A stretch of 64,000 nucleotides of DNA, from assembly GCA_965204745.1 (NCBI GenBank), contig OZ242010.1, positions 3,840,001 through 3,904,000 on the forward strand, given 5' to 3'. The stretch's first letter is position 1. Each line of letters begins with the position of its first letter. The stretch comes from Candidatus Latescibacterota bacterium. GTDB lineage: Bacteria; Latescibacterota; UBA2968. A program made the position numbers and the translations under genes. Shown here piece after piece: positions 3,801 to 63,599 of this stretch. The notes beneath the pieces were generated by a model. That model had not been told where the DNA came from, ran no database searches, and saw only the letters and a program-made list of their open reading frames with translations.

Positions 3801-3845
3801 TGGCCGATTTTGAATAAATTTTTCCCAAAGAGATTTCAGACTCAT
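834..3845 (-). CDS. Dynamin-like GTPase with N-terminal repetitive coiled coil and two C-terminal ComEA-like helix-hairpin-helix modules
   Basis: G1 GGGFSSGKS, G3 DTPG, G4 NKAD; twice AKxIVAYRTxNGxFQRLDELRRVRGIG; start overlaps upstream stop (ATGA). Confidence 0.85.
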   Translation of the reverse strand: MSLKSLWEKFIQNRPVYQKLRVAYERATKNLAKLQTAHEQTTADLNRKTGALGEAHAEHAQTKTALDNSRHRFQQLQTAHGALTEKNDRTATDLEQARHRVQQLQKAHEQTTVDLNRKTGALGEARAEHAQTKAALDNSRHRFQQLQKAHGALTEKNDRTATDLEQARHRVQQLQKAHEQTTADLNRKTGALDEARAEHERVTAALDKAQHDLQQLHAKHERTTMELERATTALDEARAEHEQTKAELRDEQKKYNSLHEEYMQTDWPKLLEEHNQTTTALTEEREKHAEKTDALNALHEEHNALREEHDQTETDLTKARHNFDELDQKYKLVSDLLTPKSSENEAFVKFKKLFDKEFMDFANEESSLADEADAVQKLQSLEKRLEEIVAFPHTFMKKSIAIGGGFSSGKSEFVNSFIKKPDVKMPVGIEPATAIPSFVISNPEVSIKGFSRDGATVDIAPDLYSQLSHRFVESFSFKLKDHMPYITVEVPLDEGLFENICLIDTPGYNPAGGNTGEDRKTAAEVLKDRDALIWMIGLDATGTIPQDDLDFIEDLELNGLPFYVVLNKADLKSPSDLKDILDEVKETLEDVDIEPVGISAYSAIRGKEYSFDEDGVSLHDFFRRENQPKEEIETELRGGIESVFAMYEDAIRKDEHTAELLMKELNSLDLEILSTKIPLDEQDVLSEKIDNIKNSQERDFTPIKAKMEKIKKEMLKAVDEVFWSLRPQGNEAMTRLSSAPAPKSEQASPPPSNKGSAVKRQGSIKGGKYIPTTAEQPEKPSALPQEHSQPPKRTDKPRFENPELPASSNVVTAHREAKISDEQATQSATEQFEQSALQFINSASADSLADEFGKLRSPDVAKKIVAYRTQNGQFQRLDELRRVRGIGFYTFEQLRKRLWDMRHRLSSNVVTAHREAKISDEQATQTEQIGQSALRFINSESAKVLADRLDLRPDVAKNIVAYRTRNGPFQRLDELRRVRGIGFSFYTFEQLRKRLWDMRHHLG
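843..1428 (-). repeat. Tandem duplication (~300 bp unit) encoding the two HhH modules
   Basis: Near-identical blocks ~843-1128 and ~1137-1428; SSNVVTAHREAKISDEQATQ...LWDMRH occurs twice. Confidence 0.9.
3245..3750 (-). repeat. 210-bp (70-aa) tandem repeat in the coiled coil, about 2.5 copies
   Basis: cgatgccgYgagttgtccaagg at 3421 and 3631; QQLQKAHEQTTxDLNRKTGAL repeated. Confidence 0.9.
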
Positions 3846-6070
3846 GGGTTCACCTCCACTTTTTTCAATTCATCCTTGAGGCGGCTGATTCGCTTCAATT
3901 CCATTTCCTTGTTTTCAATGGATTTCTCAAGCGCGTCAAGTTCCTTTTTCGTGCGCTCTAGAAGTTGCTCATCCAACCGAACTCTCTTCATTTCTGCGGT
4001 GAGACTTCTCGTGTACTCTTTTATTTTTGTATTAAATTCATTGTAAAGTGTGAAGCGAAGGTATTCGTCCGCCTCCTGAGCAAATTTTTCCGCCTTTTTG
4101 CCCTTCAACACGCCTTGGGGTCTTAAGGACTTTGGCAGTGAGGGGCCAAACGTATCGTCAGGAAGGGATATGTCGGCGACAGCATTCCTGATGACCCGCC
4201 TGATCATCGAGGCTTCCAAACTCTCATCATCAAAGTGTTCCTGCAAAATTTTGGCCATCTCCTTGATGAGTTCATTCCGCCACTCAGTCTTTTTATTTTC
4301 TGCTATGGTTTTGAACTCTCTACCGATATCACTGGCAAACAGCGACAGGTCATGAGAAACGGCATTGGTGCGAATGGTCTTACTGGTTTCACTATACTGT
4401 TCGTAACCACCTCCAAACCATCTGGCAATCCCTGCAAAAACCCCTCTCTTTTTACGCTCTTTGGTTTCAGTCACTTCGCCTATCGCACTCTCGATATTTT
4501 TGCTTAACGCCTGTTTTTGTCTGTCGAGTTCTCCCCGAAGTTCCCGATTCAGCGAGTTTGTGCGCTGTGTCACCGATTCCTCGTAATCCAATTTGATGTC
4601 CCATGAAGCATCATTGAGAGCCTTTGTCAATGTTGCGCGCTGTGCCTTGATTTTTCCAATATCCGTACGTTTGATTTCGGACTGCCGCTCGTCGGCAAAC
4701 GCGAGCAGGCCATCCTTCAAGGCGTGCAGAGACTGGCGTTTGGCGTGGATGTACTCCATCCGCCTTTGCGTGATGATGTCGTCCTTTTTCGCGCGCACCG
4801 TCGAGACGATGTTTTGGATGGTCAAGATGTTGGACAACTTGTTCAAATTGACGCCCGACAAGCGCGCGTCCGCATCGGAGAAATAGTCTGGATAATCGTA
4901 CAGCAGATTGCCCCAAGCGTTCTGCATCCCCTCGTCCCACTTCTCCCGTTGTCCAAAAAGTTGCTTCAGGCTTTCGCACATTCCCGACGAGTAAATGATC
5001 TTGCTCTGGCCTTCGAGCAACTGATCGTAGGTATCGCCCACTTCGGGATTGTTATCTTTCAAATCCGCGATAACCTTGCTCAATTGGTCTCCAAGCACCC
5101 TGGTGAGACTCTCCAACACGCGATCCAACTGCCCGCCGTTCTCATCCTTCAGATTGCCGAAAAGCTGGGTATCTGCTTGGGCCGCCACGACAAACAGTTC
5201 CCGGATGCCTTCCTTACTGGTGATTCGGTCCATCAATTCCAAATCCACAGTATTCAAAAACTGCCCCGACGGACTGAGAACCAACACCACATCGCATTGG
5301 TTCAAGTGTTCTCGCGTCCGCTCCTCGCGGGACTGCACCGGGTCGTTGATGCCCGGCGTATCCACGATTTCTATGTCCTTCAGATTTTCTTGGGGAAGCC
5401 GAATGTTGACGCTTTTGGTAAAGGGCATGTACCTGCCATCCGCGCCGACATACGCCTCTAATTGAGCCTGCAAATCAGAATCACTGCCGAACTCGAGAAG
5501 GCGATTCTCGGTCAAGGATTCCCCGGTAGCCTCCATTTTCTCGTATTGTTCATGCGCGGCAGAGAGTTCGACATTCTCCCGCATCTCCCGATTGGCCCTG
5601 CTTTTCGCCCGCTCCTCTGGGGATCGAGATCGGGTTTTTCTCTGCTGTTCTTGCGCTAGGGCTGTCCTGTACCGGTCGTCCCATTGCCTGTTGTACTCGT
5701 CGTAATTCGCCTTGATATTCTCAATGTCGGCTTGGGTAAAAAATTCCACTTCCGCGGACGGGGTTTTGCCATGCGAAAGCGTGGTCAAGGCCGCGGTCAT
5801 CGGCGTAGCGGCCTTGGGGAGAATGCTTTGCCCGTCAAAGATGAGGGCGTTCAGCAACGAGGATTTCCCGGATTTGACCCGGCCCAAGATGCCGATCTTC
5901 AGCAGACGACCTTCAGTGGCAATCGACTCCAAATCCGTTTGCAAGTTCTCGCTCGTGGGAACGCTGTGTTCCCGACAGATGCGTTGGGCCTCGTCCCCGA
6001 GAAAATCGTGGTAACGGCCCGTGACACCTTCCAACTTTTCCCTGAAAGCGACAATTCCATTCTGATTCAT
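3842..6070 (-). CDS. Dynamin-like GTPase (Leo/Eleos-like, ~742 aa); native RBS displaced by IS701
   Basis: GRVKSGKSS, KAATPMTAALT, DTPGINDP; true start MNQNGI at 6070 lies within the IS target duplication. Confidence 0.88.
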   Translation of the reverse strand: MNQNGIVAFREKLEGVTGRYHDFLGDEAQRICREHSVPTSENLQTDLESIATEGRLLKIGILGRVKSGKSSLLNALIFDGQSILPKAATPMTAALTTLSHGKTPSAEVEFFTQADIENIKANYDEYNRQWDDRYRTALAQEQQRKTRSRSPEERAKSRANREMRENVELSAAHEQYEKMEATGESLTENRLLEFGSDSDLQAQLEAYVGADGRYMPFTKSVNIRLPQENLKDIEIVDTPGINDPVQSREERTREHLNQCDVVLVLSPSGQFLNTVDLELMDRITSKEGIRELFVVAAQADTQLFGNLKDENGGQLDRVLESLTRVLGDQLSKVIADLKDNNPEVGDTYDQLLEGQSKIIYSSGMCESLKQLFGQREKWDEGMQNAWGNLLYDYPDYFSDADARLSGVNLNKLSNILTIQNIVSTVRAKKDDIITQRRMEYIHAKRQSLHALKDGLLAFADERQSEIKRTDIGKIKAQRATLTKALNDASWDIKLDYEESVTQRTNSLNRELRGELDRQKQALSKNIESAIGEVTETKERKKRGVFAGIARWFGGGYEQYSETSKTIRTNAVSHDLSLFASDIGREFKTIAENKKTEWRNELIKEMAKILQEHFDDESLEASMIRRVIRNAVADISLPDDTFGPSLPKSLRPQGVLKGKKAEKFAQEADEYLRFTLYNEFNTKIKEYTRSLTAEMKRVRLDEQLLERTKKELDALEKSIENKEMELKRISRLKDELKKVEVNP

Positions 6071-6071
6071 G

Positions 6072-7151
6072 TAGGACTTACGCAAAAAAGAACAGGATCG
6101 AACCCCCATCCTCACTTTGGAGGTCTGTATGGCGAAACCAACGCGCTTGGATTACTGCCAGTATCTGCTTAGCAGTCCGCTCAATTATACCCTGACTCAT
6201 TTCGCAGATCACAGCGACCGGTTCACGCATGATATGCTCAACCGCTATCTGGGTGGGGATCGCGTCTCGCCGCGTGTGATCTGGAAAAACGTCAAACCCC
6301 ACCTCACGTCGACCGCAAAGGGCGTAATTCTCTTTGATGACACGGTCTTAGATAAGCGCTATGCCAAAAAGATGGCTCTCGTGCGTCGGCAATACAGTGG
6401 CAATGCGAAGGGGGTCATCTCGGGGATCGGTGTGGTGACGTGTGTGTATGTCAATCCGATTCAAGATCGGTTTTGGCTGATTGACTATCGCATTTACGAT
6501 CCGCAAGGGGATGGAAAAACCAAGTTAGACCACGTCAAAGAGATGTTGTCACTCTTGGTCTATCACAAAAAACTGCCTTTTGAGCGAGTGGTGATGGATA
6601 CTTGGTATGCCACCAAAGCGGTCATGCTTCACATTGAGCACTTGCAAAAGACCTATTACTGTCCTATCAAAAAGAATCGCCTCGTGGACGATTCGTCAGG
6701 TGAAAACCCCTATCAACGGGTCGATGCCTTAACTTGGACAAAACGCGAACAGGCCACAGGAAAACGCATGAAACTCAGAGGGTTCCCTAAAAACCACAAG
6801 GTGAACGTATTCCGGGTCGCGTCTGCGACGAGACGCACGGCGTATATCGTAACCAACGACTTGACTCAAACCGACCCGTCAGTGGCACAAGCGGTGTGCC
6901 ACTTGCGTTGGAAGATTGAGCAAGTTCACCGGGAAGCAAAACAGGTAACGGGGCTTGAAAAGTGTCAATGCCGATTGGCACGCATTGTGCGAAACCACAT
7001 CGCGTGTGCCTTTCTCGTTTGGGGACGACTGACCCAAGTCGCCTATCAGACTGGACAAACCATCTATCAAGTCAAACATGGCTTATGGGAGGATTATTTG
7101 AGACAACAACTCAAAACACCGGCGATACCAATGACCCTGGCGTAAGTCCTA
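6072..7151 (+). mobile_element. IS701-family element, copy 1
   Basis: TIRs TAGGACTTACGC / GCGTAAGTCCTA; 5-bp TSD TCATG at 6067-6071 and 7152-7156. Confidence 0.92.
6129..7145 (+). CDS. IS701-family DDE transposase
   Basis: FDDTVLDK, RRQYSG, MDTWY, RWKIEQVHREAKQVTG. Confidence 0.9.
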   Translation: MAKPTRLDYCQYLLSSPLNYTLTHFADHSDRFTHDMLNRYLGGDRVSPRVIWKNVKPHLTSTAKGVILFDDTVLDKRYAKKMALVRRQYSGNAKGVISGIGVVTCVYVNPIQDRFWLIDYRIYDPQGDGKTKLDHVKEMLSLLVYHKKLPFERVVMDTWYATKAVMLHIEHLQKTYYCPIKKNRLVDDSSGENPYQRVDALTWTKREQATGKRMKLRGFPKNHKVNVFRVASATRRTAYIVTNDLTQTDPSVAQAVCHLRWKIEQVHREAKQVTGLEKCQCRLARIVRNHIACAFLVWGRLTQVAYQTGQTIYQVKHGLWEDYLRQQLKTPAIPMTLA

Positions 7152-7259
7152 TCATGTTCGTTCTCCTTGTAAGGCGGTAAGAGGTAAGGCGGGAGACGGG
7201 AGAGGTGAGACAACCCCGCCCAACGCCTAAGTGGTCAGCGGAAGTTTAGCCACAAAAAC

Positions 7260-8444
7260 GGCGTTGTTGCATAAATGTTGTCGTGGCGAAGTTCGTCCCT
7301 TTCCCGCGAGATTTAAGCCCCTCTTTCTATGGGATAGGACACGGGTTTCGCGATCCTCATCATGCGATTGAGCACCGCACATCCCAACCGCGCTTCCGTT
7401 TCTTGGTTCTTCTGACTTCGTGCGCGCAACTGCCGTCCAATGAGTTGCTTGTAGCGGCATAGTTGGGTTTCAACGACCGAGCGACGATGATAGCCACTGG
7501 TGCGTTTCCACTTTCGGCGGCCTTGACGCCGGATGGCTCGGATGATTTCATCGCGGGCGAGGGGAGGTGCCTTCCTGTTTCCGTGTTGTTCAATTTTGGC
7601 ATCATGGCGCGGGGGAAGAAGAGGTCGGATGGGGGCTCCTTGTTTGGGGGCGGCGCATGTGTTGAAGACCTTGCGTTTGTCATAGCCGCCATCGGCACCC
7701 ATCGTATGGACAGGGGCCAGGACTTGATCGAGCAAGGGGTTGACCTGCCAAGCGTCATCAACGCTTGCCGAAGTCAGGGTCTGTGCGACAATCTCCCCGG
7801 TGGCCTCATCGACGCCGATGTGCAATTTGCGCCAAGTCCGGCGCTTGTAAAAGCCGTGTTGACGCACCTTCCATTCCCCTTCGCCATACACTTTCAGGCC
7901 GGTGGAATCCACCACTAAATGGATCGGCGCATGACGGGATTGGACAGGTAAATCCACGTTCAAATCGCCCTGTCGCCGGCAGAGGGTCGTGTGATCGGGC
8001 ACGCGCAAAGCCACCCCCATCAACGCCAGGATGGACGTGAGAAACCCCTCGGTTTGACGCAGGGGCAAGGCAGAGACCAAGCGCAACATCAATGCCGTTT
8101 GAATAGCCAAATCTGAAAAGGTGTTTTGCCGCCCCCGTTGCGTTGGCCCTTGATGGTACCACCCCCGAAGGGCTTGCGGCGTGATCCAAAACGTCAGACT
8201 GCCCCGCTGCTTGAGACCGGCCTCGTAGGCCGCCCAGTTCCGAACCCGATAGACAGGCGCACAGCGCGGGCGACGCGGGCGACGCGGGGACTTGACAGCG
8301 GTCTTGGAAGCGGTTATCTTGGGCATGACAGGTTCCTGGTGAGAAAGGGTGAGTGGTTTCGATGATCTATATGCCCAATCTACGAAGGAGCCTGTCTTTT
8401 TGCAATCCCAACTTGCAGGTAATTGCTATTTATGCAACAAAGCC
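7260..8444 (-). mobile_element. IS5-family (IS903 group) element
   Basis: TIRs GGCGTTGTTGCATAAA / TTTATGCAACAAAGCC; 9-bp TSD CACAAAAAC at 7251-7259 and 8445-8453. Confidence 0.93.
7313..8326 (-). CDS. IS5/IS903-group transposase
   Basis: YRVRNWAAYEAGLKQRGSLTFW, VDSTGLKVYGEGEW, ADGGYD, GYHRRSVVET. Confidence 0.93.
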   Translation of the reverse strand: MPKITASKTAVKSPRRPRRPRCAPVYRVRNWAAYEAGLKQRGSLTFWITPQALRGWYHQGPTQRGRQNTFSDLAIQTALMLRLVSALPLRQTEGFLTSILALMGVALRVPDHTTLCRRQGDLNVDLPVQSRHAPIHLVVDSTGLKVYGEGEWKVRQHGFYKRRTWRKLHIGVDEATGEIVAQTLTSASVDDAWQVNPLLDQVLAPVHTMGADGGYDKRKVFNTCAAPKQGAPIRPLLPPRHDAKIEQHGNRKAPPLARDEIIRAIRRQGRRKWKRTSGYHRRSVVETQLCRYKQLIGRQLRARSQKNQETEARLGCAVLNRMMRIAKPVSYPIERGA

Positions 8445-8533
8445 CACAAAAACACAAAAAACACAAGCGGGGTACAACTGGCGATAGGCCGTTCAAAGAC
8501 ACAATCGGAGACTATCTCCCCTTCCCGAATCGG

Positions 8534-8876
8534 GGTGAAAGTCTTGTAGTTAATTTGTTGGTCATTGTTGATTGTTTGGTGTATGTTTTGTGTCGTATTT
8601 GTTCTTTGAAAAGTGAAGCGGGATAGGCCGTTGCTGATAAAGACATGTCTGCGACAGCGACAACCAAGCGGCAGACCTAAAATCTCCTATCAGCATAAAA
8701 TCCACAGGAAGAATAGTAAATAATAGACTATTCACTTGCGCGGCTAGCTTGACCGAGCAAGTAAAAAACGGACATGGAGGTGCTGTAAGACGGACAAGAG
8801 GTTGTATGTGCTTGGACGCTGGCCTGATGAAGCGTCAATTTCAGTTGGTCAACAATGATCAACAAGAAAGGAGCGG
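8534..8876 (+). mobile_element. Non-autonomous IS607-type mini-element (no tnpA/tnpB) carrying an omegaRNA scaffold
   Basis: Ends in AAGGAGCGG like the tnpB element; inverted subterminal TTGTTG(G/A)TCATTGTTG at both ends; removal at GG restores hairpin TCTCCCC..GGGGAGA. Confidence 0.72.
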
Positions 8877-8896
8877 AGAGCCTATTGTTCAAAAAG
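8739..8896 (+). ncRNA. Putative TnpB omegaRNA (scaffold to 8876 plus ~20-nt flanking guide)
   Basis: 8765-8838 aligns with 63442-63515: AAAACGGACRTGGAGRTGCYGTAAGACGGACAMGAGGTTGTAWGTGCKTGGACGC...TGAAGCGTCAAT. Confidence 0.65.
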
Positions 8897-10597
8897 CACC
8901 GGCGTTGCCAGCAAGCGGATGTTCTCTCGAATGCTGGTCAGATCGGCAATGGTTTGTTCAATGTCCTGAAGCGCGTCCTTCTTGGCCCGCTCGGCTTCGG
9001 CGATTTCGCTTTGTTTGGCTTTGATCTGCGAATCCAAGGCCGCCGCGTTCTCATCGATGAGGGCGTTCACTTGCTCCTCGAAATTTTTGGGCAGTTCGCT
9101 CCGCAATTTGCTTTTGATGGACGGGATAACGCTTCCAATCAGTTGGTTGCGAATCTGATCCTCCTGCTTCCGCTTTTGAAAGTAGGCAATAATGTCGGGC
9201 AGGAAGATAATGACGAGTTCCAACAGTGGCATCACAAAACTGGTGGTAATGGCGAGCGTGGTGGCGACAACACGGTACAAATTCCGCCCACCTTTGACTG
9301 CACTGCCGATCCCTTTGATAATCGCGCTCCCCGTGGAAAGAATCTGTGGGGCGTGGTACACTGCTTTTTCCAGCCAATTTTCATCTCTCGTATAAGAGGA
9401 CAGAATGTGGTCAATGCCTTTGACGCTGTTAGACAAGTCTTCGCCGATCTGTCTGTTCAACTGCTCCATTTCGGTTTTCACATGGCTCCCGAGCGAGGTG
9501 CGGAGGATTTCCGCCATCTGTTGCTGAAAAGCATCTTCGCCGCCGGACAGGGCGATGTTGGTCAACTCCTCTACGGCATTGTTCAAGTCCGCGCCCACGC
9601 GCTCCACAATGGTATTGACACGGGTCGTGGAATACCGCGAGCGGATGTCCTGAATCATAGCGTTTTTCTCGCGCTCCAAATCCCGGATGGCTGTGGCGAG
9701 TTTGTCAATGGCCGCTTGGTTCTCGCCCTCGTCCTTTTTCAAGGAACTGATCCAAGTGTTCAAGCTGCCGTCAATATCGAAGAAACTCGCCTCCAAGCTG
9801 GGGCGATAAAGCCGGGTGAAAAGTTTTTCCGGATCGATGGCATCGAGCGTTTTTCCAAGACTCGCCCCGCCATCCATGTCCACGGGCACGACCACATCGG
9901 CAAAGTCGAAATCGTCTTGGAGCCGATCCTTGACGTTCTGCGCGATCTCTCGAACCTCGGATTCCGAGCGCAAATTCGCCTTGCTCAAAAACACGGAAAA
10001 CGGCTTGTCGAACTCGTCAAACTCGGACAACTGCCGATGGGTCGATTGCGTGACCGTGCCCTCTTCCACGCTGATCAAGACCGCGTAATGGCTCCCTCGG
10101 TCAAGGTACGTCAAAATGGCTTTCTGGTGCAAATCCAGCGGCGAATCAAACCCCGGCATATCCACGAGCACGAGGGGCGCGATCCCCTTGAGTTGCTCGC
10201 TGTTGAGAAAGACCTCGACATATTGATATTGCGCCGCCTTTTCCTTAATCGCGCCGATCTCCTCAATGGCGTAGCGATCCGCCTCGCCATTTTCCATGAT
10301 GGCCTCGACGCGCTCCCTGTCGGAATAACGCAACTCGGTTGCCAGCGCGGTTTCCGGGGTGATGTTGACGGGCAGGAGTTCAGACCCCAAAAACGAGTTG
10401 ATCAACGTGCTCTTGCCCGCGCTGAATGCCCCGATCACCGGCACGACCAACTCGGCCTCGGCGATCTCCCGTTTCAACGCCTCTGCGGACTGGATGTTTT
10501 TCCCAAGTTCCTCAAACACCCCCAAAGCACTCGCCCTAGTCAATTCCGCCTTCACCCCATCCAAATAATCGCAAAACGTCCTCTGCGTCTGAAGCAT
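8882..10597 (-). CDS. Dynamin-like GTPase (Leo/Eleos-like, 571 aa)
   Basis: GAFSAGKS, PETALATE, DMPGFDS, SKAN; C-terminal hydrophobic paddle ATTLAITTSFVMPLLELVIIFLP. Confidence 0.9.
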   Translation of the reverse strand: MLQTQRTFCDYLDGVKAELTRASALGVFEELGKNIQSAEALKREIAEAELVVPVIGAFSAGKSTLINSFLGSELLPVNITPETALATELRYSDRERVEAIMENGEADRYAIEEIGAIKEKAAQYQYVEVFLNSEQLKGIAPLVLVDMPGFDSPLDLHQKAILTYLDRGSHYAVLISVEEGTVTQSTHRQLSEFDEFDKPFSVFLSKANLRSESEVREIAQNVKDRLQDDFDFADVVVPVDMDGGASLGKTLDAIDPEKLFTRLYRPSLEASFFDIDGSLNTWISSLKKDEGENQAAIDKLATAIRDLEREKNAMIQDIRSRYSTTRVNTIVERVGADLNNAVEELTNIALSGGEDAFQQQMAEILRTSLGSHVKTEMEQLNRQIGEDLSNSVKGIDHILSSYTRDENWLEKAVYHAPQILSTGSAIIKGIGSAVKGGRNLYRVVATTLAITTSFVMPLLELVIIFLPDIIAYFQKRKQEDQIRNQLIGSVIPSIKSKLRSELPKNFEEQVNALIDENAAALDSQIKAKQSEIAEAERAKKDALQDIEQTIADLTSIRENIRLLATPVLFEQ

Positions 10598-62224: not shown

Positions 62225-63599
62225 GGCAAGTAACAGTTCGCTATAATCGTATCGTATCGTATAAAATCGTATATTATCGAGCGAAAGCAGTTGGTGTTGA
62301 AGATTGGATAGGCCAATGGTTAAGACGCACAAAAATGCACTGAAGCCGAATAAAGCACAGGCGACGCTGTTGTCAAAGCATTGTGGCTATGCGCGTGTGG
62401 CCTATAATCACGCGCTAAATGTGTTCAAAGATGGCTTGGACAATGACGAGTTTAAGTCGCTTTACACGCTCAAGCGCGAGTTCAATGCCGTGAAGAACGA
62501 GGAGTACGAATGGAATGGCGAATTGTCGCAGAACGCATCCAAGAATGCCATCCACCACCTGGATCGGGCCATAAAGAACTGGCGGAACAAGACTTTGCCT
62601 GCGCGTTTTCCAACACACCGCAAACGCGCACACGGCCAGAGCTATCAAGCGGATAACGGCAAAGGCACAGTCAAGGTCTGTGGCAATGTGGTCTTCTTGC
62701 CCAAAATCCGATGGGTCAAGATGGCCGAATCTTTGCGGTTTGATGGCGAGATTGTCCAAGCCACGGTGACCAAAACGCATAGCCGATGGTTCGTCTGCTT
62801 GTCCGTTGAAACAGGCGAGGAGACGCCCGCCAAGCGCGCAGGAGAGACCATCGGCATTGACATGGGCATCCAGACATTGGCAACGTATTCAGATGGACAG
62901 ACCGTGGAGAATCCCCAAGCGTCTCTTGACCGACACTATCGGAAGTTAAGGCGTGTGGATAAGGCTATCGCACGCTCGCAGAATGTCCACGGCAAGAACA
63001 AGCACAGCAACCGCAGGCAACGTCGGTATGACCAAAGACAACGCATTTATGGCCGCATCGCGAACATTCGCGACGACGTTCACCACAAAGCCACATCCGC
63101 TTTGGTGAAAGCGACGACCGTTGGTAAGGTGATCGTTGAAACGCTGAATGTCGCCGGTATGCGCCAAAACAAGTGTCTGTCTCGCGCTTTCCACCGCGCC
63201 GGCATCGCAGGCTTCTTGCGAATGTTGGCCTACAAGTGCGAATGGTCTGGCGTGGTCTTTGAGAAAGCCGACCGGTGGTTTGCGAGCACGAAGACATGCT
63301 CCGACTGTGGCGAGAAGAAAGTCGCCATGGACCTATCAGAGCGCGACTATGTCTGCCTGGCCTGCGGATTGGTCATCAACCGCGATTTGAACGCGGCAAA
63401 GAACTTGGCACACTACGACGCGGCAAGCCATGCCGAGTCGCAAAACGGACGTGGAGATGCCGTAAGACGGACACGAGGTTGTAAGTGCGTGGACGCATGC
63501 CCTGTGAAGCGTCAATCAAATCAACTGTCATTTGCTTTCGCATAACTTTGCGATAGTATGCGATAAATGAATGCGATTTCATACGATTTGAAGGAGCGG
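62225..63599 (+). mobile_element. tnpB-only IS607-type element (no tnpA)
   Basis: Preceded by TGGGGG, ends AAGGAGCGG; inverted subterminal ATCGTATRAAATCGYAT motifs at both ends. Confidence 0.7.
62316..63545 (+). CDS. tnpB: RNA-guided endonuclease TnpB
   Basis: N-terminal HTH; RuvC GIDMG / VETLN / RDLNAA intact; Zn ribbon CSDC..CLAC. Confidence 0.93.
   Translation: MVKTHKNALKPNKAQATLLSKHCGYARVAYNHALNVFKDGLDNDEFKSLYTLKREFNAVKNEEYEWNGELSQNASKNAIHHLDRAIKNWRNKTLPARFPTHRKRAHGQSYQADNGKGTVKVCGNVVFLPKIRWVKMAESLRFDGEIVQATVTKTHSRWFVCLSVETGEETPAKRAGETIGIDMGIQTLATYSDGQTVENPQASLDRHYRKLRRVDKAIARSQNVHGKNKHSNRRQRRYDQRQRIYGRIANIRDDVHHKATSALVKATTVGKVIVETLNVAGMRQNKCLSRAFHRAGIAGFLRMLAYKCEWSGVVFEKADRWFASTKTCSDCGEKKVAMDLSERDYVCLACGLVINRDLNAAKNLAHYDAASHAESQNGRGDAVRRTRGCKCVDACPVKRQSNQLSFAFA

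What the first reader, a model, noticed from the sequence alone, without database searches (positions are those of the whole stretch)
8534..8896. Protein-free IS607-type mini-element carrying its own omegaRNA, homologous to the 3' end of the tnpB element 55 kb away
Seen: 8739-8838 aligns with the tnpB 3' end (63420-63515) and both elements end in AAGGAGCGG. Excising at GG rebuilds a perfect TCTCCCC/GGGGAGA hairpin, which supports the boundaries. Subterminal repeats differ (TTGTTG-type versus ATCGTAT-type). Extra hairpins (TGCTGATA/TATCAGCA, GTCTGC/GCAGAC, GAATAGT/ACTATTC) replace the ORFs. Known: TnpB omegaRNAs derive from the right end and take flanking DNA as guide; IS607 recombines at GG. 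Inference: an RNA-only parasite that borrows TnpB in trans. Its guide (AGAGCCTATTGTTCAAAAAG) is antisense to the dynamin stop region.
Basis: partly seen in the sequence, partly recalled or inferred. Interest (0 to 1): 0.8.

Follow-up and report, generated by a model that had tools for sequence, protein, structure and literature searches.

The report
Gene-free jumping element carrying guide RNA
A 341-base mobile DNA element with no gene of its own carries a folded RNA copied from the guide RNA of a transposon nuclease (TnpB) encoded elsewhere in the genome, a kind of hitch-hiker already known in outline but here seen in an unusual mixed form.

Summary
Window 8534-8876 is a protein-free, IS607-type (GG-crossover) mini-transposon. 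The genome has 3 near-identical copies (98-100%) at different sites and 5 diverged relatives. A metagenome contig carries this site empty, joined exactly at the GG, and two congeners carry the other two sites empty.

Its 3' half (about 8735-8842) is homologous to the 3' end of four intact tnpB-only elements, one of them at 62225-63599. It shares with them a covarying secondary structure, as a TnpB guide-RNA (omegaRNA) scaffold should. All 11 elements with an intact left end lie after RGGG, while every right end reads GCGG. This matches the TGGG versus TCGG self/non-self rule published for an IS607 TnpB.

- The element's ends resemble those of a different IS607 lineage that has an intact serine transposase, so it looks chimeric.
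- It has an extra covarying 5' RNA domain of about 100 nt that is absent from tnpB.
- One of 193 spacers in the host's type I-C CRISPR array matches its right end.

Transcription and loading on TnpB are untested. Standalone omegaRNAs that work in trans are already published, and gene-free scaffolds of this class are common in metagenomes. I rate it a new variant of a known kind, of moderate interest.

The parts
8516..8533 (.). Left flank. TCTCCCC (8516-8522) is the 5' arm of the hairpin that is whole only in the empty site. The last bases, GG, plus the crossover GG give the RGGG motif (here GGGG).
   Evidence: sequence. (X1 contig joins 8533 to 8875).
8534..8535 (+). Left crossover GG dinucleotide, the same as 8875-8876. 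The exact cut can slide by up to 3 nt within the G run.
   Evidence: 'both = 3'. All three copies share GG at both junctions.
8536..8599 (+). Left end with two direct subterminal repeats, TTGTTGGTCA (8555-8564) and TTGTTGATTG (8565-8574). These are presumed binding sites for a serine transposase.
   Evidence: It resembles the left ends of IS607 copy A5 (43 of 60 nt) and of mini e1 (45 of 60), more than T1 (33 of 60) or d4 (21 of 60).
8600..8629 (+). Block conserved between c-type and d-type minis, with no predicted pairing. It is a possible internal promoter, which is untested.
   Evidence: conserved. (no sigma-70 consensus match).
8630..8734 (+). 5' RNA domain found only in the gene-free elements. 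Stem 1 is 8633-8639/8688-8694, stem 2 is 8647-8652/8671-8676, stem 3 is 8711-8717/8727-8733.
   Evidence: helix 1: 2 pairs with compensatory changes; helix 2: 5 of 6 pairs. Not found at tnpB 3' ends or in congeners.
8735..8842 (+). 3' RNA domain, the omegaRNA-scaffold homologue. It holds a stem at 8735-8739/8757-8761 and a nested multi-helix region ending in GAAGCGTCAA.
   Evidence: 96.7% of cells paired, 7 of 26 pairs compensatory across 8 minis and 4 tnpB ends, slid controls 0-1.
8843..8876 (+). Right end. It holds inverted copies of the subterminal repeat, TGGTCAACAA (8846-8855) and TGATCAACAA (8856-8865), then GAAAGGAGC and the crossover GG (8875-8876).
   Evidence: The last 9 nt are as in the tnpB elements. 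The repeats are as in IS607 copies A4/A5. One CRISPR spacer matches 8851-8876.
8877..8896 (+). Presumptive guide: flanking DNA read out of the right end. It is antisense to the last codons and stop of the dynamin-family gene.
   Evidence: Geometry. No second genomic match of its first 16 nt (2 or fewer mismatches) lies after RGGG. The guide role is inferred.
8882..10597 (-). Dynamin-family GTPase gene whose 3' end abuts the element.
   Evidence: PF00350, E 3.3e-19.
62225..63599 (+). tnpB-only element T1. It runs from the left GG through ATCGTAT-type repeats and the tnpB ORF (62316-63545) to the right end ...GAAGGAGCGG. The scaffold homologue is 63403-63519.
   Evidence: (PF07282, PF01385, PF12323).

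Best explanation
Window 8534-8876 is a non-autonomous IS607-type mini-transposon. I call its family 'c-type'.

**Mobilisation (inferred).** A serine-recombinase transposase encoded elsewhere binds the TTGTTGAT/GTCA repeats in both ends. The best candidates are the 1.8-kb tnpA+tnpB IS607 copies A5/A4, whose ends are alike. It recombines at the GG dinucleotides, excises the element as a circle, leaves a seamless donor joint, and re-inserts at GG sites that lie in RGGG.

**RNA (structure shown, transcript inferred).** The element carries no ORF. It carries a roughly 250-nt structured RNA read on the + strand out of the right end into the flank. The 3' domain of that RNA plus the right end is an omegaRNA scaffold of the same family as the one at the 3' end of four resident tnpB-only genes (T1-T4, ISDra2-like, 409 aa).

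**Function (inferred).** The RNA is loaded in trans on one of those TnpB proteins, with the roughly 16-20 nt of flank (8877 onward) as guide. The complex cuts the empty site (RGGG followed by the guide match). It spares the occupied site, where GCGG precedes the match. Repair from an occupied sister copy then restores the element.

The element therefore draws its transposase from one transposon family and its nuclease from another.
For: **Mobility and boundaries**
- Three copies are 98-100% identical with unrelated flanks and GG at both junctions.
- This site is empty in a metagenome contig, joined exactly at the GG. X5 holds the filled left junction.
- The c2 site is uninterrupted in congener G016, and the c3 site in G010.

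**No protein**
- The longest ORFs inside the element are 51-57 aa, and they have no matches sought or expected.

**RNA**
- 13 of 48 pairs are compensatory in the 8 minis, against 6.1 +/- 1.5 in shuffles, 0 of 500.
- The 3' domain shares its structure with the 4 tnpB ends: 7 of 26 pairs compensatory, against 3.9 +/- 0.9 in shuffles (1 of 500), and 0-1 in slid controls.
- G-U pairs and folding z-scores favour the + strand.

**Partner nuclease**
- The four TnpB frames are open, 414-447 aa.
- T1 matches the ISDra2 TnpB structures over residues 9-385 at E 3e-40.
- D, E and D stand in the GIDMG, VETLN and NRDLN motifs, aligned to the same residues of the best hit.

**TAM logic**
- 11 of 11 elements with a left end follow RGGG (7 GGGG, 4 AGGG; the 5'-truncated d7 is left out).
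- 12 of 12 right ends read GCGG.
- This matches TGGG versus TCGG, with discrimination at position -3, in the C. botulinum IS607 system (bioRxiv 10.1101/2023.11.20.567912, passages seen).

**Transposase**
- There are six IS607-type tnpA genes (MerR-like N-terminus plus serine recombinase domain). Three have no stop inside the domain.
- The A5/A4 ends resemble the c-type ends.

**Precedent**
- Standalone omegaRNAs are reported to work in trans (PMC10691335).
Against: - No transcript is shown. No run on record as RNA holds the stretch, and no sigma-70-like promoter was found in the element.
- No binding or cleavage data exist.
- The stretch between the conserved scaffold and the guide differs greatly in length and sequence: about 32 nt in c-type, 55 nt in d-type, 95 nt in the tnpB elements. 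It is not shown that TnpB tolerates this.
- I found no consistent pairing partner for the conserved terminal GGAGC.
- The match of the ends to A5 is moderate and lies in low-complexity, T-rich sequence: 43 of 60 and 31 of 45 nt.
- The covariation rests on about five independent lineages within one genome (c, d4, d6, d5/d7, d8). The shuffle control can overstate significance for related sequences.
- The RGGG count assumes that the crossover GG is the last GG before element-specific sequence. Only the c-type boundary is verified by empty sites.
Confidence: 0.65

Rival explanations
1. Inert deletion remnant. The element is only a shrunken IS607-type transposon that kept its ends. The similarity to the tnpB 3' end is left over, and the RNA, if made at all, does nothing.
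For: Congeners hold plain deletion derivatives that keep tnpB fragments next to the scaffold: L158 with residues 295-367 and L160 with residues 338-409. Decay products of this kind therefore do arise. No expression data exist.
Against: Copies that differ by 14-19% in sequence keep the helices through compensatory changes, including the 5' domain, which is not tnpB-derived. The same RNA core sits between three different sets of ends. That points to selection on the core itself. Serine-recombinase transposition acts on double-stranded DNA and needs no such hairpins (established knowledge of IS607; passages).
Confidence: 0.1
2. Exapted or TnpB-independent RNA. The structured RNA works as something other than a homing guide. 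It could be an antisense or small regulatory RNA acting on the neighbouring gene, a decoy that soaks up TnpB, or a stabilising or insulating transcript element for the transposon.
For: The 5' domain of about 100 nt covaries but has no counterpart in tnpB or in the minimal gene-free scaffolds seen in metagenomes, which start at the stem equivalent to 8735-8761. Read-out from this copy is antisense to the dynamin-family gene end. d-type relatives carry an extra long covarying hairpin with a terminator-like stem and T-run in the left end.
Against: The three c-type copies sit in unrelated contexts: after a dynamin-family gene, in an intergenic stretch, and inside a hicA toxin gene. No common target is apparent. 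The RGGG/GCGG pattern and the retained TnpB-type terminal 9 nt are explained by guide function and not by the alternatives.
Confidence: 0.15
3. The RNA serves the short TnpB of the 1.8-kb IS607 elements, whose ends the mini resembles, and not the ISDra2-like T1-T4 proteins.
For: The subterminal repeats and part of the right end (..GTCAACA..GAAAGG) resemble the A4/A5 elements, which encode their own short TnpB of about 340 aa.
Against: The conserved scaffold (8735-8842) is homologous to T1-T4 3' ends only. nhmmer found just the 12 loci and none at the A-type elements. The last 9 nt before the guide are T-type (AAGGAGCGG), not A-type (..GGTATCAGG).
Confidence: 0.05

Closest known systems
Standalone (effector-less) omegaRNA loci of OMEGA systems. 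Described in the introduction of Altae-Tran et al., PNAS 2023 (PMC10691335), which cites the 2021 Science paper (not read here).
   Same: It is a mobilised guide-RNA scaffold with no nuclease or transposase gene, in a genome that also holds effector-containing loci. It is expected to work in trans (passage).
   Different: From the passages read I could not tell which transposon families those cases belong to. Here the carrier is IS607-type (GG crossover, serine recombinase). Its ends appear to come from a different IS607 lineage than the scaffold does, and there is an added 5' RNA domain.
PATE-like gene-free IS200/IS605 elements of Geobacillus stearothermophilus that often encode omegaRNAs (Meers et al., preprint PMC10055086).
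   Same: They are minimal non-autonomous elements that lack genes, carry omegaRNAs, and need both TnpA and TnpB in trans (passages).
   Different: PATEs have subterminal hairpin ends used by a Y1 (HUH) transposase on single-stranded DNA. This element has direct and inverted subterminal repeats and GG crossover sites, as for serine-recombinase IS607. It is not a PATE in the strict sense.
Clostridium botulinum IS607-family IStron with TnpA(S), TnpB and omegaRNA (Zedaveinyte et al., bioRxiv 10.1101/2023.11.20.567912).
   Same: Shared features are the GG core dinucleotide, seamless donor joints, and a G-rich TAM that includes the GG (TGGG there, RGGG here). The scaffold ends in a look-alike with C at position -3 (TCGG there, GCGG here). 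A mini-IS without genes was excised there by TnpA in trans (passages).
   Different: That element carries tnpA, tnpB and a group I intron. Here there is no gene and no Rfam hit at all, intron or otherwise. The gene-free form there was a laboratory construct.
ISDra2 TnpB and its right-end RNA (PDB 8BF8, 8EXA, 8H1J).
   Same: T1 TnpB aligns with it over residues 9-385 (E 3.2e-40). The scaffold overlaps the 3' end of the gene and runs through the right end.
   Different: ISDra2 is an IS200/IS605 element moved by a Y1 transposase (recalled, not from a call). The scaffolds could not be compared directly because no ISDra2 RNA sequence was available in the tools.

Membership tests
IS607-family transposable element (non-autonomous member) | Identical core dinucleotide (GG) at both junctions, with seamless rejoining on excision. 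| tested here: met
   GG flanks all three c-type copies. The X1 contig joins 8533 to 8875 with one GG retained. Uninterrupted orthologous sites exist in G016 and G010.
IS607-family transposable element (non-autonomous member) | Subterminal repeated motifs in both ends, instead of terminal inverted repeats or Y1-type hairpins, and no target-site duplication beyond the shared dinucleotide. | tested here: met
   Repeats lie at 8555-8574 (direct) and 8846-8865 (inverted). The flanks show no duplication other than GG.
IS607-family transposable element (non-autonomous member) | A serine-recombinase TnpA with an N-terminal MerR-like DNA-binding domain is available, in cis or in trans. | tested here: met
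   None lies in the element. The genome has six copies (PF00239 over cut-off). Three have no stop in the domain, and all have an HTH-like N-terminus before the catalytic YARVSS motif.
IS607-family transposable element (non-autonomous member) | That transposase actually excises and integrates this element. | not testable with these tools
   The only evidence is similarity of the ends to copies A5/A4: 43 of 60 and 31 of 45 nt.
TnpB omegaRNA (right-end guide RNA) | The scaffold is homologous to the RNA encoded at the 3' end of a tnpB gene and its right end. | tested here: met
   80-88% identity over about 75 nt to T1-T4. nhmmer E 1e-23 to 1e-27 for the four tnpB ends with a profile of the 3' domain.
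TnpB omegaRNA (right-end guide RNA) | Conserved secondary structure supported by covariation. | tested here: met
   The numbers are given in the For line.
TnpB omegaRNA (right-end guide RNA) | The scaffold ends at the transposon boundary, so that flanking DNA supplies the guide. The TAM lies next to the left end and is distinguishable from the right-end sequence. | tested here: met
   The orientation is as in the tnpB elements. RGGG is found in 11 of 11 left flanks and GCGG in 12 of 12 right ends.
TnpB omegaRNA (right-end guide RNA) | It is transcribed, processed and bound by TnpB, and directs cleavage. | not testable with these tools
   No RNA run is listed.
PATE (palindrome-associated transposable element of IS200/IS605) | Subterminal imperfect palindromes recognised by a Y1 HUH transposase, with a TTAC/TTGAT-type target. 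| tested here: not met
   The ends are repeat arrays with GG crossover. The transposases whose elements have look-alike ends are serine recombinases.
Group I intron-bearing IStron | A group I intron ribozyme in the left part of the element. | tested here: not met
   There is no Rfam match at gathering score in the window. Nothing beyond chance-level hits (E 7-9) at E up to 10 in 8480-8920. Nothing relevant in L004, L005, L010 or L013.

The most novel reading that the evidence does not exclude
The element is a natural chimera that uncouples the two halves of the transposon life cycle. The transposase-binding repeats come from one IS607 lineage (A4/A5-like, with its own short TnpB). The guide-RNA scaffold and the last 9 nt before the guide come from another lineage (ISDra2-like T1-T4, whose own ends have no cognate transposase in this genome).

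The same RNA cassette also sits between two other sets of ends, so it behaves as a portable module that swaps ends to follow whichever transposase is active. Its extra covarying 5' domain of about 100 nt is absent from tnpB genes, from congeners and from the minimal gene-free scaffolds in metagenomes. It would then be a new functional RNA domain, serving as the element's own promoter-proximal stabiliser or processing signal, or giving a TnpB-independent activity.

The host's type I-C CRISPR spacer against the right-end junction would mean the element also travelled on DNA that the host treated as foreign.
Probability: 0.35. Interest if true: 0.65.

Novelty: new variant of a known kind. Interest (0 to 1): 0.5.

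Why it matters
It gives a clean natural example, with filled and empty alleles in wild populations, of a guide RNA travelling without its nuclease on a serine-recombinase transposon.

If the chimeric reading holds, guide-RNA cassettes and transposon ends recombine as separate modules. A tiny element could then parasitise two unrelated transposon families at once, one for movement and one for retention. That bears on how TnpB/omegaRNA pairs diversify and how stand-alone guide arrays, as in CRISPR, could arise.

In practice the family offers a natural series for defining what TnpB needs in its RNA: the same scaffold with linkers of 32, 55 and 95 nt to the guide, with or without a 5' domain. It also predicts an RGGG TAM for an uncharacterised ISDra2-like TnpB.

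Tried and rejected
**Known RNA families.** Rfam gave only a tRNA in the window at gathering score. It gave chance-level hits in 8480-8920 (E 7 and 9) and one irrelevant weak hit in four related loci. No known ribozyme, intron or omegaRNA family applies.

**Promoters.** The scan found no sigma-70-like site in 8400-9000 and nothing in the right place in the d4 locus. The transcription start is unknown.

**Expression.** No RNA holder is listed among the 21 runs returned. I draw no conclusion on expression.

**Strict scaffold motif.** It had 0 exact hits in genome contigs, viral contigs and metagenome contigs. The right-end 24-mer had 0 hits in viral contigs.

**Relatives by DNA.** BLAST of the mini core found 0 of 40 related genomes at E <= 0.001. 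The family is not found by DNA in those searched. A protein search later showed T-type TnpB in three congeners.

**Closest TnpB elsewhere.** In genome contigs it is 45% identical (Caldilineaceae MAGs). Their 3' ends share only short motifs.

**Pseudoknot.** By eye I looked for pairing between the terminal GGAGC and CTCC-like stretches upstream. It was not consistent across copies, so I dropped it.

**Origin of the 5' domain.** I tested whether it is decayed tnpB coding sequence. Only one shared 8-mer was found, which is compatible with chance.

**Target hairpin as a repeat.** I tested whether the target hairpin belongs to a genome-wide repeat. CCCGAATCGGG occurs only 7 times, two of them beside elements (c1, T4). 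That is too few to claim a preference.

**Downstream genes.** A crude ORF scan of what lies downstream of each element was uninformative.

**Trans targets.** No second genomic match of any 16-nt guide lies after RGGG.

**Supplements.** Paper supplements were not opened. Those of PMC10691335 and of the 2021 Science paper may list standalone omegaRNAs on IS607-type elements, which would lower the novelty further.

Full report
**What is at the coordinates**

The stretch 8534-8876 has no ORF longer than 57 aa. It begins with GG followed by GTGAAAGTCTTG and ends in GAAAGGAGC followed by GG. Its part 8739-8838 aligns with 63420-63515, the 3' end of a 409-aa TnpB gene at 62316-63545. That gene matches Pfam Cas12f1-like_TNB, OrfB_IS605 and HTH_OrfB_IS605. 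Both elements end in AAGGAGCGG.

**Census in the genome**

The window lies in a single 5.48-Mb contig. BLAST and two nhmmer profiles find the same 12 loci and no others.

- **c-type:** three full-length copies, 98-100% identical. c1 is the window copy; c2 and c3 lie elsewhere.
- **d-type:** five diverged gene-free relatives (d4, d5, d6, d8, and the 5'-truncated d7). They are 81-87% identical over the core and have different ends.
- **T-type:** the 3' ends of four tnpB-only elements, T1-T4. T1 is in the window and is 80% identical in protein to the other three. All four frames are open.

None of the four tnpB genes has a transposase gene beside it.

The genome also holds six IS607-type tnpA genes, with a MerR-like N-terminus and a serine-recombinase domain. 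Three have no stop codon in the domain. Each sits in a 1.8-kb element together with a different, shorter TnpB.

**It moves, and the boundaries are exact**

- The three c-type copies have unrelated flanks and GG at both junctions.
- Contigs of four public runs were laid on 8340-9300. Run X1 has a 1091-nt contig that joins 8533 directly to 8875, skipping 341 nt, with 65 and 426 nt of near-perfect flank. This is the empty site, and it restores the TCTCCCC/GGGGAGA hairpin.
- Run X5 has a contig across the filled left junction. A loose end in X1 shows the same left end next to a flank that is absent from this genome.
- The c2 site is uninterrupted in congener G016, and the c3 site in G010. Both are uninterrupted at the G run where the element sits here.
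- c3 interrupts a hicA toxin gene that is intact in G010.

**The RNA**

In the alignment of the eight gene-free copies, RNAalifold predicts 48 pairs. Of these, 96.1% of cells pair and 13 pairs carry compensatory changes. Shuffles give 6.1 +/- 1.5 (0 of 500 reach 13), and versions with the 3' partner slid by 1-3 columns give 0-1.

Examples visible in the sequences:
- GCTGATA/TATCAGC changes to GCTGGCA/TGCCAGY.
- GTCTGC/GCAGAC changes to GTCTGT/ACAGAC and to GCTTAC/GTAAGC.
- CAAG/CTTG changes to CACG/CGTG and to CTGAC/GTCAG.

The 3' domain (8735-8842) shares its fold with the four tnpB ends. There, 26 pairs are 96.7% paired and 7 are compensatory, against 3.9 +/- 0.9 in shuffles (1 of 500) and 0-1 in slid controls.

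The + strand folds better than shuffles (z = -3.17), and the - strand does not (z = -1.26). Several conserved G-U pairs also point to the + strand.

The caveat is that all of this comes from about five independent lineages in one genome.

The 5' domain (8630-8734, three stems) covaries as well. It has no counterpart at the tnpB ends. It is also absent from the deletion derivatives found in congeners G016 and G019, and from the minimal gene-free scaffolds in metagenomes, which begin at the stem equivalent to 8735-8761. No Rfam family matches any part.

**Fit to the published IS607 TnpB logic**

In the C. botulinum IS607-family IStron, TnpA(S) requires GG and prefers TGGG. TnpB needs a TGGG TAM. 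The scaffold ends in UCGG, and the -3 position tells self from the donor joint (passages seen).

Here, 11 of 11 elements with a left end are preceded by RGGG (7 GGGG, 4 AGGG). All 12 right ends read GCGG. The empty site at c1 reads GGGG followed by the 8877 flank. It would therefore be a target, while the occupied site would not.

T1 TnpB aligns over residues 9-385 with the ISDra2 TnpB structures (E 3.2e-40). It has D, E and D in the three RuvC motifs and both CxxC pairs. That these are the catalytic positions is recalled knowledge, not a tool result.

No guide has a second match in the genome after RGGG. This fits homing rather than regulation of other loci.

**A chimera**

The c-type left end (GTCTTGTA..TTGTTGG/A..ATTGTTGA) and the right-end repeats resemble the ends of IS607 copies A5 and A4. 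They also resemble the ends of a second gene-free family, e-type, which has two copies. Left-end identity is 43 of 60 nt to A5 and 45 of 60 to e1, against 33 of 60 to T1 and 21 of 60 to d4.

The last 9 nt before the guide, however, are those of the tnpB elements, not of A-type. The d-type minis carry the same RNA core between two other sets of ends, which resemble T2 and T1.

The c-type is the only subfamily with near-identical copies and polymorphic sites. It is also the one whose ends resemble an element with an intact transposase. I infer that the RNA cassette changed ends and is now moved by the A-type TnpA while still matching the T-type TnpB. This is inference from moderate similarity in T-rich sequence.

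**How new**

Standalone omegaRNAs that are mobilised, lack effector and transposase, and work in trans are stated in PMC10691335 (passage). PATE-like gene-free elements that often encode omegaRNAs needing TnpB in trans are stated in PMC10055086 (passages).

- 46 had a TnpB match from near the N-terminus upstream of the motif.
- 23 had a partial match, mostly cut by a contig edge.
- 46 had no match.

I examined 28 of those 46 because they had enough upstream sequence. Twelve have a profile-confirmed scaffold, and none of those 12 has a TnpB-like ORF over the motif. Only 1 of the 28 (L078, without a profile hit) has an ORF weakly like TnpB. The twelve share only about 50-280 nt with each other.

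The general phenomenon is therefore known and common. I did not find the following in the passages read or in four literature searches (and the reads above):
- a natural gene-free IS607-type carrier;
- the mixed origin of ends and scaffold;
- the extra 5' domain.

Supplements were closed and may hold such cases.

**Verdict**

Transcription and trans-loading remain to be shown. It is a new variant of a known kind, with interest 0.5.

Noticed in passing
Own genome C1:1458657-1472744 (outside the window); spacer at C1:1461126-1461160: A CRISPR array of 194 repeats lies next to a type I-C cas operon (cas3, cas5c, cas8c, cas7, cas4, cas1). Only 1 of its 193 spacers matches the genome outside the array. 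That spacer matches the last 26 nt of the c-type right end (window 8851-8876), followed by 9 nt unlike any of the three resident flanks. It was therefore taken from a fourth copy that is no longer in the genome, possibly on foreign DNA. The 9 mismatched nt are at the end nearest the PAM, if the crRNA is read from the strand on which the repeat ends in ATTGAAAC. Resident copies would then escape targeting.
   Followed up: partly
Own genome C1:1109975-1110370 and C1:2785248-2785629: A second gene-free mini-element family (e-type) has two copies of about 390 bp, 85% identical. Its left end is like the c-type and its right end is like the 1.8-kb tnpA+tnpB IS607 elements. Its interior matches nothing else in the genome.
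   Followed up: partly
Own genome, left ends of d4 (C1:1853219-1853710), d5, d6, d8 and of tnpB element T2 (C1:4230002-4231483): A 16-17-bp hairpin shows striking compensatory changes between copies: GATTCC../..GGAATC, GAGACC../..GGTCTC, GTCAAC../..GTTGAC, GTATCC../..GGATAC. Its loop holds CCGCCGGTGG, which can pair with CCATCGGCGG just downstream, and a T-run follows. The arrangement looks like a pseudoknot or a terminator/antiterminator, placed ahead of tnpB or of the RNA core. The terminator scan did not call it.
   Followed up: no
Own genome C1:5434328-5434670 (copy c3); L170 (G010): Copy c3 is inserted inside a hicA toxin gene of a toxin-antitoxin pair. The orthologue in congener G010 is intact (PF07927, E 1.6e-10). 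The presumptive guide of c3 therefore matches hicA coding sequence, and paralogues give near matches elsewhere, none of them after RGGG.
   Followed up: partly
Window 6117-8326: Two DDE transposase genes lie between two dynamin-family GTPase genes (3842-6115 and 8882-10597, both - strand): an IS4/IS701-like ORF at 6117-7145 (+) and an IS5-like ORF at 7313-8326 (-). The mini-element is the third insertion in this gap.
   Followed up: no
Window 8440-8504: A short A/C-rich stretch (CACAAAAACACAAAAAACACAAGCGGGG and neighbours) has very high summed contig depth in the metagenome runs and many alternative joints. It looks like a high-copy dispersed or tandem repeat family of this organism.
   Followed up: no
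L158 (G019:C1:2979938 region) and L160, L161 (G016): Congeners hold deletion derivatives of T-type elements that keep only the last 70-115 codons of tnpB plus the scaffold and right end. These are plausible intermediates on the way to gene-free carriers.
   Followed up: partly
Own genome C1:1802767 (left flank of T4) and window 8516-8535: Both T4 and c1 sit in the 3' G-run of a similar GC-rich hairpin containing CCCGAATCGGG. That 11-mer occurs only 7 times in the genome. This may be coincidence or a mild preference for G-runs in terminator-like hairpins.
   Followed up: partly
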